Part shown: one piece after another, positions 795 through 4,269 of the stretch | Position numbering within the stretch: the stretch's first letter is position 1 | Layout: each line of letters begins with the position of its first letter | IMG/VR virus record: IMGVR_UViG_3300024520_000267 | Span: 1-34,667 of that record | DNA length: 34,667 nucleotides | From: a virus | Taxonomy: Duplodnaviria; Caudoviricetes | Strand: one strand, 5' to 3' | The notes under the pieces: generated by a model | The model's database searches: none | Told to the model about the DNA's origin: nothing | Seen by the model: the letters and a program-made list of their open reading frames with translations, nothing else | Translations under genes and position numbers: made by a program

Positions 795-909
795 AGACTA
801 TTTTAACTTTAAGTTTAGAGTTATGAAGAAATGGTATTGGAAGCCTTATTACTTAAATCATATTAGTAGTTTTGGTTGGGGTTGCTTCATTATTCACATA
901 AACCAATAG
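787..909 (+). CDS. small aromatic-rich hypothetical protein (40 aa)
   Basis: MNRDYFNFKFRVMKKWYWKPYY...; AGGA upstream; fills the gap between neighbours. Confidence 0.5.
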   Translation: MNRDYFNFKFRVMKKWYWKPYYLNHISSFGWGCFIIHINQ

Positions 910-922
910 TAGAGGATAAACT

Positions 923-1057
923 ATGAGTAATCACATAGCGGATATAGTCGCAATAATGCTAATACAATACGCGCTTGTAATAATTTTAGGGTTAGGCGCT
1001 TTCGCTTGTCTATACTTATACTATTCGATATTCGTGGACGTGAGAGTAAGGAGATAG
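923..1057 (+). CDS. small membrane protein (44 aa)
   Basis: MSNHIADIVAIMLIQYALVIILGLGAFACLYLYYSIFVDVRVRR; GAGGA upstream. Confidence 0.6.
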   Translation: MSNHIADIVAIMLIQYALVIILGLGAFACLYLYYSIFVDVRVRR

Positions 1058-1058
1058 A

Positions 1059-1259
1059 ATGACGAATCTTATAATAGCAATAATAATGAACGTGCAAGTA
1101 TGCGACGACTTTCCGAAAACGAGACTCCGGTGCATAAAAGATATGGCGAACACGATTAAGATGTGCGACACGGTTAGATGTATCGAGGATGAAGCAACGA
1201 TAATTTGGTCGATGCACGATTACTTGAACGAGACGAAGCCGAACGAGGAAAAGAAATGA
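1059..1259 (+). CDS. hypothetical Cys-containing protein, possibly exported
   Basis: AAGGAG upstream; hydrophobic N-terminus; four Cys. Confidence 0.65.
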   Translation: MTNLIIAIIMNVQVCDDFPKTRLRCIKDMANTIKMCDTVRCIEDEATIIWSMHDYLNETKPNEEKK

Positions 1260-1813
1260 AAACAGTTAATTTTATAGAGGGATATGTGGGGTTGTACTCT
1301 ATAACAGAAGAGTATCATGTTTATTCGCACTATAAAAATAAGCAACTCAAACCGCAGATAATGAATGGATATTTTTGTTATAGACTTCACAAAAAAGGCG
1401 TAGCTAAAACAAAATCGCTTCACAGGATATTAGCAGAATCGTTTATAGAAAGAGTCGACGGTAAAAATCATGTTAACCATATAGACGGCAATAAGTGTAA
1501 TAACAACATTCACAATTTAGAGTGGTGTACTGTATCTGAAAACACGAAGCACGCATGGGGTAACGGTTTAATAGACAGAGAAAATATTAATTTAAAAAAT
1601 GCGTTTAACAAAAACAGAGTGAGCCACCACAGGTCAAACAATTTAAGAAAATTAACGCTAAATGATTGTAATTGGATAGAATCAAACTACGTTAAAGGAA
1701 GTAAAGGGCTGTTTAGCGCAAAAGAGATAGGTATAAAATATGGCGTTACAAAACATTTAATATACAAAGTTGTTAGTGGTAAATATAACTTCAAAAAAGA
1801 ACTAGGGTTTTAA
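1256..1813 (+). CDS. HNH homing endonuclease (NUMOD4/HNH_3-like)
   Basis: HRILAESF...VNHIDGNKCNNNIHNLEWCT..EN..HA motif; C-terminal HTH-like segment; start placed at the ATGA overlap (1256). Confidence 0.9.
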   Translation: MKTVNFIEGYVGLYSITEEYHVYSHYKNKQLKPQIMNGYFCYRLHKKGVAKTKSLHRILAESFIERVDGKNHVNHIDGNKCNNNIHNLEWCTVSENTKHAWGNGLIDRENINLKNAFNKNRVSHHRSNNLRKLTLNDCNWIESNYVKGSKGLFSAKEIGIKYGVTKHLIYKVVSGKYNFKKELGF

Positions 1814-2083
1814 ATGGGAAGCAATAGCGAGAGTTTTGAAGCTTGGTTTAGCGAGAGTTTGAAAAGCAAGATGCAGAATCTTCCTTACAATAGAGATTCT
1901 TTAATAAGAGACGCTTGGAACCACCAACAAGCAAATATTGATAAACTAGAGAAAGAGAACGAGATGCTTAGAGAGTGTGTTGAATTAATGAGAAAAACTA
2001 TTCAAGGCAATAAGTATTTATGCTTACAAGAAAAGATTAGAGCAACATTAAAAGCAATAACAGAAACAAGGAAGGGGAAGTGA
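1814..2083 (+). CDS. hypothetical coiled-coil protein, paralog of the ORF at 34421
   Basis: Shares ESF, I(D/E)KLE..N..LR and TLKA(I/V)T blocks with the junction-spanning ORF. Confidence 0.7.
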   Translation: MGSNSESFEAWFSESLKSKMQNLPYNRDSLIRDAWNHQQANIDKLEKENEMLRECVELMRKTIQGNKYLCLQEKIRATLKAITETRKGK

Positions 2084-2331
2084 GTGAAGAGATAAGTAAC
2101 CTTAACATGGTAGAGCATTGTCATAAAATTATATCTTTATATGAAGGTTCTCAAAACGCAATGAGGTCACACATGAGTGAAAGCAAGAAGCTTGGAGCTG
2201 AACGCGACCAACTTAAAGAGCTATTGAAAGAGGCTTGTGATTATATAGATAGATTCACGCTCGAAATGCATAAACGAGACGATGAAGAGCATTTTTTAAA
2301 CAAGAAAGAAATAAAAAAACTCAGAGATTAG
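2080..2331 (+). CDS. hypothetical protein
   Basis: GTGA start/stop overlap; GGGG upstream. Confidence 0.65.
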   Translation: MSEEISNLNMVEHCHKIISLYEGSQNAMRSHMSESKKLGAERDQLKELLKEACDYIDRFTLEMHKRDDEEHFLNKKEIKKLRD

Positions 2332-2427
2332 ATATGGTAATTACATATCAGGGTCAATGAGCCTTAGTGAGATGAGTTTATTATACACTAAGTAACCCAG
2401 AAATTAAAAAGATACTAAGCGAGTAAT

Positions 2428-2457
2428 TTGACGCCCCATATTCCTTTACAGTAAGAT
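2428..2457 (+). promoter_or_regulatory. candidate sigma70-type promoter for the packaging/structural operon
   Basis: TTGACG (2428-2433) N18 TAAGAT (2452-2457), in the gap upstream of terS. Confidence 0.45.
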
Positions 2458-2506
2458 TGATATAACCCAACGGGTAACATTAATTTGACTACGTTAAAGG
2501 AATGAT

Positions 2507-2986
2507 ATGGCAAAGAAGAAAGCGACTAAGAAAGTTGCTAAGAAAACTACCAAGAAAACTGGTAGACCTACCAAATACACTCAACAACAAAAAGATACAT
2601 TATTGCGACTTGCTCCACTAGGGTACACTAATAAAGAAATGGCTAACCTTATAGGGTGCGCGGAGTCCACATTTTACAAACTTATGGAAGACGATCCAAT
2701 CTTTTCGGAGTCCTTAAAGATATCTAAAGACTTGGCAGACTCACTTGTAATAGACTCATTGTTTAAAAAAGCTACGGGGAAAATATCTACAAAGGAAGTG
2801 GTAAGCGGCATTTGTCCGAATACCGGTAACATAATCGAAAGTACGAGAGTGAAAGAAATCGCTCCCGACACTACATCAATGATCTTCTGGCTCAAGAACC
2901 GTAGACCGGACCAATGGCGAGAGAAGCAAGTTATCGAACATCAAGATGCAACAATAAAGATCGACGTTGACGACTCGGGACTTTAA
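2507..2986 (+). CDS. terS: terminase small subunit
   Basis: GRPTKY, HTH segment and PDTTSMIFWLKNRRPDQWREK motif; directly upstream of terL. Confidence 0.9.
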   Translation: MAKKKATKKVAKKTTKKTGRPTKYTQQQKDTLLRLAPLGYTNKEMANLIGCAESTFYKLMEDDPIFSESLKISKDLADSLVIDSLFKKATGKISTKEVVSGICPNTGNIIESTRVKEIAPDTTSMIFWLKNRRPDQWREKQVIEHQDATIKIDVDDSGL

Positions 2987-4269
2987 TGAGCTTTAAGAAA
3001 ACCGAAATACAAAAGAAAGCCGTAAAACTCCTAGGAGGTATCGCCAAGCACAATATGTTGTTTGGCGGCTCATGATCTAGGTCCGGCAAAACTTTTATCG
3101 CATGTTACGCTATTATAATACGAGCCTCTAAAGTTAGGTCGCGGCACGCAATACTTAGAAAAACGTTTAACAGTGTTAAAACGTCTATATGGATGGATAC
3201 AATACCGAAGATTGTTGACATCGCTTTTCCCGAATTGAAAGATTCATGGTCTAATAGAAACAAAACCGATTATGTTTGGGTGTTACCTAACGGCTCGGAG
3301 GTATGGGTCGCAGGGTTAGACGATGATAAACGTGTCGAGAAGATTCTAGGGAAAGAGTATTCAACTATCTACTTCAACGAGTGTTCACAATTAAGTTATG
3401 CGTCTATTCAAATCGCCCTTACAAGACTAGCAGAAAAGAACACACTATCTAAAAAGGTGTATTACGACTGTAATCCGGCTTCTAAAAAACACTGGGCTTA
3501 CTGGCTCTTTGAGAAAAAGGTCAATCCGGTCGAGTCGGAACCTCTTAACAATCCCGATAATTACGTCAGTTTGTTAATGAACCCGTCAGATAACATCGAA
3601 AACATAGATGAAGAGTATATAGAATTTCTTCAAGGCTTACCAGAGAAGGAGCGAGCAAGATTTCTTCGCGGCGAATATTCAGACGGAGACGACGGGCTAG
3701 CATATTACTGTTTCGATCAAGAGTTACATATCCACAATGTCGAAAGACAAGCAAGATCTACGACGCATATCGGAATGGACTTTAACGTTATGCCAATGAC
3801 AGCGGCGTGTGCTTCCGTTGTTAATGGAGAGATTCACGTATTCGATGAAGCTTTCTTAGAGAATAGCGATACGCAAAGAATGGCTCATCATTTAGCAAAG
3901 AAAGGTTATCACGGAACGATATATCCCGATTCAACGGGGAAGAACCGGAAAACGTCAGGGAAGACGGACCACCAAATCTTAAGAGATAACGGGTTCCACG
4001 TTCAATACGTACACAATCCTATTCAGTATGATCGAGTGAACAACGTTAATAGACTTTTACAGGACGGTAAGGTTAAAATTAATCCAAGATGTAAAAAACT
4101 TATAAACGACTTAAATAAGGTCTCTTGGAAAGATAATAAGCTAGATCAAAAGACTGATAAGATGTTGACCCATGTTTCAGATGCGTTCGGTTATTTATGT
4201 TGGAACCTAATGCCCTTCTTTGAAGCACCAAAACAGTTAACACATACGCACATGAGGGGCGAAAAATGA
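2986..4269 (+). CDS. terL: terminase large subunit (PBSX-like), interrupted by an in-frame TGA at 3073-3075
   Basis: ATG 2986 overlaps the terS TAA; reads MSFKK...NMLFGGS*SRSGKT...; same frame as ORF 3193-4269, which has a Walker B-like TIYFNE, DCNP and nuclease motifs GMDFN and HVSDAFGY. Confidence 0.9.

What the first reader, a model, noticed from the sequence alone, without database searches (positions are those of the whole stretch)
3061..3093. Terminase Walker A split by Ser-STOP-Ser: candidate programmed 6-nt ribosomal stop-hop
Seen: terL starts at ATG 2986, coupled to the terS stop, and reads ...TTT GGC GGC TCA TGA TCT AGG TCC GGC AAA ACT (F-G-G-S-*-S-R-S-G-K-T), then stays open to 4269. 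Relative to the GxxxxGKT P-loop (GGSRSGKT) there are exactly 6 extra nt, a stop plus a second Ser codon, so a single nonsense substitution does not explain it. Established: one tRNA-Ser (modified-U UGA anticodon) reads both UCA and UCU. Hopping over a stop between matched codons is known, and bypassing is described for T4 gene 60 and for the Streptomyces phage Hau3 large terminase. Inference: take-off at UCA (3070-3072), landing at UCU (3076-3078) and resumption at AGG gives a 425 aa TerL with a perfect Walker A. Termination instead gives a 29 aa peptide. This would be a minimal recoding valve keeping TerL scarce relative to TerS. Simple readthrough leaves a 2-residue insertion in the P-loop, and restart at ATG 3193 loses Walker A. 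The rest of the genome looks intact, which argues against decay.
Basis: partly seen in the sequence, partly recalled or inferred. Interest (0 to 1): 0.92.

Follow-up and report, generated by a model that had tools for sequence, protein, structure and literature searches.

The report
Hairpin-driven ribosome stop-hop in terminase
This marine phage's only DNA-packaging motor gene has a stop codon inside its ATP-binding loop, and 26 other wild phage lineages carry a 5-7 base stop-led gap at the same spot, each behind a predicted RNA hairpin, so ribosomes likely hop over it, a reading trick that the papers we could search describe at this tiny size only in laboratory constructs.

Summary
Real and not an assembly error. 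The genome's single terL reads GGS-stop-SRSGKT; contigs of three runs agree. Among relatives, 27 lineages (95% clusters) carry a stop-led gap at this codon: 17 of 6 nt, 5 of 5 nt, 5 of 7 nt, all three stops, genes under purifying selection. Out-of-frame forms exclude plain readthrough. New here: a predicted hairpin inside the coding sequence ends at the take-off codon in 27 of 27; it beats synonymous recoding in 26 of 27 versus 5 of 47 and 14 of 81 plain alleles. An HNH endonuclease sits directly before terL in 11 of 25 gapped versus 3 of 101 plain lineages, and the 5' segment moves between phages as a cassette. Best reading: hairpin-pushed ribosomal stop-hop (about 0.8), spread as a homing-endonuclease immunity mark like T4 mobA/gene 60 (about 0.7), not a TerL-limiting valve. 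No protein or RNA evidence. The scan noted a 5-nt case and longer gaps on other DNA.

The parts
2507..2986 (+). terS, small terminase; its TAA overlaps the terL ATG
   Evidence: PHROG 309, E 4e-41; sequence
2986..3075 (+). terL part 1: 29 codons ending F-G-G-S, then TGA
   Evidence: FKKT-x-x-Q-x-x-A pattern shared with plain relatives; pN 0.18 vs pS 0.67 against L142
3041..3068 (+). predicted RNA hairpin inside the coding sequence (3041-3050 pairs 3059-3068; weak extension 3035-3037 with 3069-3071), ending at the take-off codon; likely bypass driver
   Evidence: z -2.7 against dinucleotide shuffles; 0 of 100 synonymous recodings as stable; same register in L079, L142, L072
3070..3072 (+). predicted take-off codon TCA (Ser29)
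   Evidence: TCN in 27 of 27 gapped lineages, AGY in 0 of 27 vs 8 of 47 plain
3073..3075 (+). TGA stop, first codon of the gap
   Evidence: always a stop in relatives: TGA 14, TAG 8, TAA 5
3076..3078 (+). predicted landing codon TCT
   Evidence: TCN in 21 of 22 six- and seven-nt gaps, TTT once; ACN in all 5 five-nt gaps
3079..4269 (+). terL part 2, resuming R-S-G-K-T; rest of ATPase and the RNase H-like nuclease domain
   Evidence: Pfam Terminase_3, Terminase_6N, Terminase_6C; only terL match in the genome
1205..1813 (+). free-standing HNH endonuclease upstream of terS; link to the gap not shown
   Evidence: PHROG 59 E 6.5e-36, Pfam HNH_3; not in the starred clade of terL-adjacent HNHs

Best explanation
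The phage's only large terminase gene has a stop codon and one extra serine codon inside its Walker A loop, and ribosomes likely hop these six bases, probably pushed by a predicted RNA hairpin that ends at the take-off codon, to make a normal 425-residue protein; the gap likely spread, and likely persists, as a mark that spoils the target site of a homing endonuclease. Steps: (1, shown) 29 codons, UCA, UGA, UCU, then R-S-G-K-T in frame. (2, inferred) With peptidyl-tRNA-Ser on UCA and UGA waiting in the A site, the 5' arm and loop of the hairpin have left the ribosome while its 3' arm (the F-G-G codons) is still inside; zipping of the stem draws mRNA out, which moves the ribosome forward; the tRNA re-pairs at UCU and decoding resumes at AGG. 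Ribosomes that terminate give a 29-aa peptide. (3, shown in relatives) The 5' end of terL up to the gap, often with an HNH gene in front of it, is swapped between phages as a unit. (4, inferred by analogy with T4 mobA/gene 60) The nuclease cuts plain Walker A DNA of co-infecting phages and the 5-7 extra bases protect the carrier without changing the protein. In this genome no HNH lies between terS and terL, so it would be a cassette that has lost its nuclease or a resistance allele.
For: Recurrence: 27 lineages at 95% protein clustering, 17 six-nt, 5 five-nt, 5 seven-nt gaps, all three stops. In a stop-blind scan all 15 inserts found in this TerL family begin with a stop and none is a sense two-codon insert (48 matches examined), against about 370 plain matches estimated in the same collection. 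Selection: dN/dS 0.02-0.06 downstream in the four unsaturated pairs that include a gapped gene; pN below pS in the 24 codons before the stop in all 6 gapped-gapped pairs. Single terL in a genome estimated 100% complete. No ATG/GTG/TTG between stop and P-loop lysine in any of the 17 in-frame lineages. Hairpin: MFE of -48..+2 is -19.4 (27 gapped) vs -9.5 (47 plain); more stable than synonymous recodings at p<=0.05 in 26 of 27 vs 5 of 47 and 14 of 81 in an independent plain set; 3' end at -3..+1 of the take-off in 27 of 27; no such gap-linked excess in four downstream windows; 88 of 445 pairs are G-U. tRNA fit: TCC take-offs land on a pyrimidine-ending triplet 5 of 5 vs 11 of 22 (p 0.06). Cassette: HNH directly before terL in 11 of 25 gapped vs 3 of 42 plain (p 6e-4) and 0 of 59 further plain; three plain/gapped pairs are 96.6-98.7% identical downstream but synonymous-saturated upstream (pS 0.78-1.02 vs 0.31-0.39); the window shares 36 of 42 upstream bases with L079, whose TerL is only 58% identical; trait scattered on the TerL tree, 16 changes, 11 forced by starred branches. 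Precedent: bypass insert blocks MobA self-cleavage and can outlast the nuclease (10.1101/2022.08.31.505936); pairing of exiting mRNA proposed as forward driver (10.1101/2024.12.09.627546).
Against: No protein, ribosome or RNA data. Six of 27 landing triplets are mismatched (ACN, TTT). The hairpin has no single conserved register and shows no significant covariation: no consensus on 23 sequences, covariation at shuffle level (260 of 500), one two-sided change in the window's group of four; the fold window was chosen after a sliding scan; one gapped lineage (L061) is not significant and some plain alleles fold well (L076 -21.9). 14 of 25 gapped lineages, this one included, have no adjacent HNH, three plain lineages do, and adjacent HNHs are not shown to be one clade (8 changes, 1 forced). 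The HNH profile was seeded from interrupted loci and the window. No excess anti-Shine-Dalgarno pairing (p 0.73). Lineages are not fully independent, so p-values are optimistic. In T4-like cassettes the 5' stem-loop is reported as poorly conserved.
Confidence: 0.78

Rival explanations
1. Stop-codon readthrough here (Trp or similar at UGA), with -1 or +1 frameshifts in the 5- and 7-nt relatives; each would give a Walker A with two extra residues.
For: 17 of 27 lineages are in frame; in every length class the downstream frame would give exactly two extra residues; low-level readthrough could add to hopping.
Against: Needs three different mechanisms at one site; all three stops are used; no sense two-codon insert in 15 of 15 family inserts; +1 or -1 slips from TCN give poor re-pairing (sequence); TCN kept at the spacer with no AGY; downstream frame of most shifted forms offers no conserved shift motif.
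Confidence: 0.08
2. The 5-7 bases are removed from the RNA by a cut-and-ligate step guided by the hairpin (micro-intron).
For: A hairpin abuts the gap in 27 of 27; removal would also explain any gap length and the mismatched landing triplets.
Against: Too short for a self-splicing intron; no structure spans the gap (z about 0 in -20..+35 and take-off..+45); does not explain why the gap always starts with an in-frame stop after TCN and ends in a TCN-like triplet; no such enzyme among the 47 genes scanned.
Confidence: 0.05
3. The hop is real but its selected purpose is regulatory: a valve that keeps TerL scarce or senses host state, the HNH link being secondary.
For: 14 of 25 gapped lineages lack an adjacent HNH yet keep gap and hairpin; L061/L062 share the cassette and differ by the HNH gene; a sensor role is proposed for Hau3 (PMC10732093).
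Against: Near-identical phages package with plain terL; most of the family is plain; 25-fold odds enrichment of adjacent HNH; L076 looks like a plain allele that kept a hairpin beside gapped L179 (inference).
Confidence: 0.2
4. Split protein: the 29-aa peptide and a re-initiated C-terminal chain assemble, as in endonuclease-split NrdA or Topo2L.
For: Such splits occur with MobA and MobE (10.1101/2022.08.31.505936).
Against: First in-frame start lies 39 codons after the landing site here and 8-94 codons in relatives, past the P-loop lysine; only 6 of 10 out-of-frame forms have any upstream start in the second frame and it is not conserved.
Confidence: 0.03
5. Dead gene, sequencing error or recoded stop.
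For: The site is known only from assemblies; no raw reads were available.
Against: Three runs agree; 27 lineages, three stops, purifying selection; TGA, TAG and TAA all end genes in this genome; no tRNA genes.
Confidence: 0.02

Closest known systems
Phage T4 gene 60 50-nt bypass with the MobA HNH element and its Myoviridae homologues (10.1101/2022.08.31.505936: abstract and whole Discussion read; Bonocora 2011 seen only as cited there and in PMC5009743)
   Same: Essential phage gene interrupted at a catalytic motif; take-off codon followed by a stop; wobble-compatible landing; HNH gene upstream; replaced 5' segment of the host gene; cassette can outlast the nuclease; different nucleases can carry it; 5' stem-loop.
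   Different: Terminase, not topoisomerase; 5-7 nt, not about 50; serine take-off; no take-off stem-loop in the gap, no mini-SD room, no special nascent-peptide extension seen; the 5' hairpin is the one consistent signal here, whereas it is reported as poorly conserved there; the nuclease sits between genes and does not split terL.
Streptomyces phage Hau3 and prophage terminase bypass (PMC10732093, passages read)
   Same: Large terminase gene with short non-coding blocks (10 and 7 nt) that are bypassed; worked in E. coli when the slow codon was changed to UAA.
   Different: Trigger is the rare UUA codon, not a stop; proposed as a life-cycle sensor; found in 3 of 100 genes; a different terminase lineage (the window's TerL was not compared with it directly); no homing nuclease mentioned in the passages seen.
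Synthetic stop-hops in E. coli (Weiss 1987, seen only as described in PMC5009743 and 10.1101/2024.12.09.627546)
   Same: Nine bases specify one amino acid; matched codons flank a stop; same geometry as this window.
   Different: Low-level, without stimulators, in constructs. The 2016 review states that no natural in-frame stop-hop was known.
Free-standing homing endonucleases, intronless homing (PMC2988022, passages read)
   Same: Intergenic HNH gene beside a conserved essential gene, with co-conversion of flanking sequence.
   Different: Here protection would come from a translationally skipped micro-insert and not from base changes in the target.

Membership tests
Programmed translational bypass | Two disjoint coding parts of one conserved protein, flanking bases not coding | tested here: met
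Programmed translational bypass | Slow A-site codon (stop or hungry) directly after take-off | tested here: met
   stop in 27 of 27; 15 of 15 in a stop-blind scan
Programmed translational bypass | Landing codon able to re-pair with the take-off tRNA | tested here: met
   met in the window (TCA/TCT) and 21 of 27; 6 of 27 have one mismatch
Programmed translational bypass | Stimulatory mRNA signal | tested here: inconclusive
   predicted 5' hairpin strongly gap-linked but without covariation support and untested
Programmed translational bypass | Single polypeptide with the junction sequence; mRNA keeps the gap | not testable with these tools
   needs mass spectrometry and RNA data; no RNA holder listed
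T4 gene 60/MobA element | Insertion in a topoisomerase gene, about 50-nt gap with take-off stem-loop and mini-SD | tested here: not met
   terL, 6 nt, no structure over the gap; works like it, not a member
Homing-endonuclease bypass cassette (general) | Nuclease gene linked to the gap and co-converted flank | tested here: met
   met in relatives; in this genome no HNH lies between terS and terL
Homing-endonuclease bypass cassette (general) | Nuclease cuts the plain allele and spares the gapped one | not testable with these tools
   needs a cleavage assay
Hau3-type terminase bypass | Rare UUA codon opens the gap, Streptomyces host | tested here: not met
   stop codon opens the gap; host unknown
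Stop-codon recoding or readthrough | One stop type reassigned or read through in frame | tested here: not met
   three stops and 10 of 27 out-of-frame gaps; all stops used as stops in the genome

The most novel reading that the evidence does not exclude
A widespread natural family of minimal stop-hops, the smallest programmed bypass: homing endonucleases protect themselves with a 5-7 base stop-led insert in the terminase P-loop code, and the phage gene repeatedly evolves a hairpin inside its own coding sequence that alone pushes the ribosome across, even onto a mismatched landing triplet. It would be the first natural in-frame stop-hop and a clean, many-times-evolved test of the idea that pairing of mRNA leaving the ribosome drives bypassing.
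Probability: 0.55. Interest if true: 0.9.

Novelty: new variant of a known kind. Interest (0 to 1): 0.82.

Why it matters
Programmed bypassing is known from very few genes. A 2016 review says no natural in-frame stop-hop was known (PMC5009743), and eight literature searches found no report of a stop-led gap in terminase Walker A (open-licence PMC and bioRxiv only). The family gives 27 natural variants of gap length, stop, landing match and hairpin register in a 60-nt cassette that fits a standard reporter, so the open question of what drives take-off can be tested directly. It also shows a second, much smaller solution to homing-endonuclease self-protection, and means gene callers truncate these terminases and lose Walker A.

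Tried and rejected
Assembly error: contigs of 3 runs agree. Recoded stop or phage suppressor tRNA: rejected. Internal Shine-Dalgarno push from the Gly-Gly codons: no difference in pairing energy; the GGG excess at the first Gly (11 of 27 vs 5 of 47) is better explained by hairpin pairing (inference). Structure over or 3' of the gap: none. Terminator reading of the hairpin: no U tract, no + strand terminator in 900-3300. Single-register covariation: not found. Gap-specific nascent-peptide residues: none obvious. Search from the nuclease side: the 4 closest of 80 HNH hits were loci already known to sit before interrupted terL; the rest lie in other settings and gave no new gap. Cultured phage with this site: none close, all 1003 matches under 60% identity, Walker A not inspected. 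Host: 16 GTDB loci, one gapped (L221, a 1967-bp contig in a Vicingus MAG, binning unsure); host not assigned. Solved structures: no sequence match for plain relative L068; no fold was run. No RNA holder listed. 103 of 236 sequences had no terL match (chance pattern hits) and 3 were cut off before Walker A; these were dropped before counts. L167 is the window's own sequence and was merged with it.

Full report
Observation. The window is a 34,667-base virus record, estimated 100% complete, with one terL match that holds one TGA. Gene order is HNH (1205-1813), two small ORFs, terS (2507-2986), terL, then head and tail genes. terL starts at ATG 2986 and reads F-G-G-S-stop-S-R-S-G-K-T at 3061-3093, open to 4269. 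Contigs of three seawater runs cross the site unchanged; one may be the source, none is raw reads or RNA. TAA, TAG and TGA end 29, 13 and 6 of 48 ORFs tabulated, and there are no tRNA genes. The 9-mer itself occurs 21 times in the window, so the case rests on relatives.

Relatives. Of 80 viral loci fetched by protein similarity, 77 cover Walker A: 10 have a stop-led gap at the same codon (8 of 6 nt, 2 of 7 nt), 2 have one extra base two codons later, the rest read GGSRS[GS]KT/S. Pattern scans of viral and metagenome contigs and a GTDB scan added more. Of 236 sequences, 103 had no terL match and 3 were truncated; 130 were classified. Clustered at 95% protein identity and by allele type, there are 27 gapped lineages: 17 of 6 nt (TAG 8, TGA 6, TAA 3), 5 of 7 nt (TGA), 5 of 5 nt (TGA 3, TAA 2). 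The triplet before Arg is TCT 10, TCA 10, TCC 1, TTT 1 and ACN in all five 5-nt gaps. A scan that did not ask for a stop gave 48 matches; the 15 in this TerL family all start with a stop and none is a sense two-codon insert, while the plain pattern has about 370 matches, 120 of 120 fetched being terL-like. Scans were limited to Tyr/Phe-Gly-Gly starts and mostly to AAA lysine codons, so counts are lower bounds.

The genes are alive. Downstream dN/dS is 0.061 (L061/L062), 0.046, 0.025 and 0.018 in the three plain/gapped pairs; other pairs are saturated with pN far below pS (window/L142 0.20 vs 0.85). The 24 codons before the stop also have pN below pS in all six gapped-gapped pairs. No start codon lies between the stop and the P-loop lysine in the in-frame forms. 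So both parts are likely made as one chain (inference).

The signal. Folding showed excess structure only upstream of take-off (nine windows tried, so the window was chosen after looking). For -48..+2 the mean MFE is -19.4 in 27 gapped and -9.5 in 47 plain lineages; against synonymous recodings 26 of 27 gapped are at p<=0.05 versus 5 of 47 plain and 14 of 81 in an independent, more GC-rich plain set. The stem has 13-20 pairs and ends at -3..+1 of the take-off codon in 27 of 27; the loop centre is at -21.5 to -24.5 in 23 and at about -15.5 in four, the window among them. Four downstream windows show no consistent difference (p 0.58, 0.79, 0.02, 0.06, signs mixed). One pair in five is G-U and the sense strand is the more stable in 26 of 27, though plain alleles lean the same way more weakly. 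Against it: no common register, no covariation above shuffles, one two-sided change among the window's four. The hairpin therefore looks re-tuned per lineage, not inherited as one fold (inference). In the window it is 3041-3050 with 3059-3068, z -2.7. No Shine-Dalgarno excess was found. Wills, Parsawar and Atkins propose that pairing of mRNA as it leaves the ribosome drives forward bypassing and place the gene 60 5' tetraloop 26 nt before take-off (10.1101/2024.12.09.627546, passages); the geometry here fits.

Origin. On a FastTree tree of the part after the gap (83 rows; three short lineages and four distant GTDB rows left out) the 24 gapped rows need 16 changes, 11 forced by starred branches. 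Three plain/gapped pairs are 96.6-98.7% identical downstream but saturated upstream (pS 0.78-1.02 vs 0.31-0.39); in L005/L007 and L042/L043 DNA similarity begins at the landing or resume codon and the gapped partner has a NUMOD4-HNH gene between terS and terL. An HNH gene ends directly before terL in 11 of 25 gapped versus 3 of 42 plain lineages (seven with under 400 nt upstream, 14 distant GTDB loci and the two +1 loci left out) and in 0 of 59 further plain lineages (of 82). The profile was seeded from three interrupted loci and the window; upstream ORFs were also listed and 21 proteins checked by Pfam or PHROGs. Five adjacent HNHs form one starred clade yet go with 6-nt, 7-nt and +1 forms; the others are scattered. 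L061 and L062 share the cassette and differ by the HNH gene. The window's 42 upstream bases match L079 at 36 (median 24) although their TerL are 58% identical, and a fourth-register member, L072, has an HNH of another family next to terL. The window itself has no HNH between terS and terL, and its HNH at 1205-1813 does not group with the starred clade. This matches the MobA element, where the bypass insert blocks self-cleavage, can outlast the nuclease and can pass to other nucleases (10.1101/2022.08.31.505936, Discussion read), and intronless homing with co-conversion (PMC2988022, passages). Cleavage was not tested.

Mechanism and odds. Hop about 0.78-0.8; readthrough or frameshift with two extra residues 0.08; RNA removal 0.05; split protein 0.03; dead or erroneous 0.02. 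Given a hop, immunity to a homing nuclease as origin about 0.7, regulation as the main purpose about 0.2. Shown: anatomy, recurrence, selection, cassette exchange, HNH linkage. Predicted: hairpin. Inferred: take-off, push, landing, immunity. That one tRNA-Ser reads UCA and UCU, and that UGA-C is a weak stop context (9 of the 10 out-of-frame gaps have C after the stop), are recalled, not from a call.

Novelty. It works like T4 gene 60/MobA but is not a member, and differs from Hau3 in trigger (PMC10732093, passages). Its geometry equals the synthetic stop-hop, of which the 2016 review knew no natural in-frame case (PMC5009743, passages). Eight searches found no printed report; subscription journals and preprint supplements could not be seen. 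This scan has already noted a 5-nt case with an endonuclease cassette and 16-, 42- and 51-nt gaps in other terminases; my cassette reading was recorded before that look-up, and those notes are not counted as support. Verdict: real, new variant of a known kind, interest 0.82.

Noticed in passing
L041:930-960, L039:1-30: Two relatives (88% identical TerL) have one extra base after the second serine (TCC-Y-GGC), no stop, no strong hairpin in L041; L041 has an adjacent HNH of the same starred clade as gapped loci. Possibly a +1 frameshift version of the same immunity trick.
   Followed up: partly
L076/L078 versus L179, 5' end of terL: Plain allele with a strong hairpin (-21.9) in the short register, next to a gapped sister 98.6% identical downstream: possible revertant that lost the gap.
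   Followed up: partly
L012, L015, L064, gene before terL: NUMOD4-HNH directly before a plain terL with no gap and no hairpin; protection by base changes or another target.
   Followed up: partly
L313, L328, L336, L343, L350, L352, L354, L356: Related HNH domains sit inside intein-like genes whose splice end (HN) is followed by SGKS/SGKT, i.e. inteins at Walker A motifs of other ATPases (L352 and L356 match terL): the same motif draws several kinds of mobile element.
   Followed up: no
L074:2637-2915: 93-aa ORF with no Pfam or PHROG match lies directly before a gapped terL whose landing triplet is TTT.
   Followed up: partly
window:15719-16269: Two short ORFs (88 and 71 aa) before the tape-measure-like gene, the usual place of a tail chaperone frameshift (recalled arrangement, not checked).
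   Followed up: no
window:3034-3040: Perfect AGGAGGT inside terL part 1, at the 5' edge of the hairpin extension; GGAGG is also present in L079, L142 and L072; no start codon at usable spacing.
   Followed up: partly
window:25561-26409: DNA methyltransferase gene (PHROG 116) on the minus strand; the gap region contains GATC and the palindrome TCATGA, link not tested.
   Followed up: no
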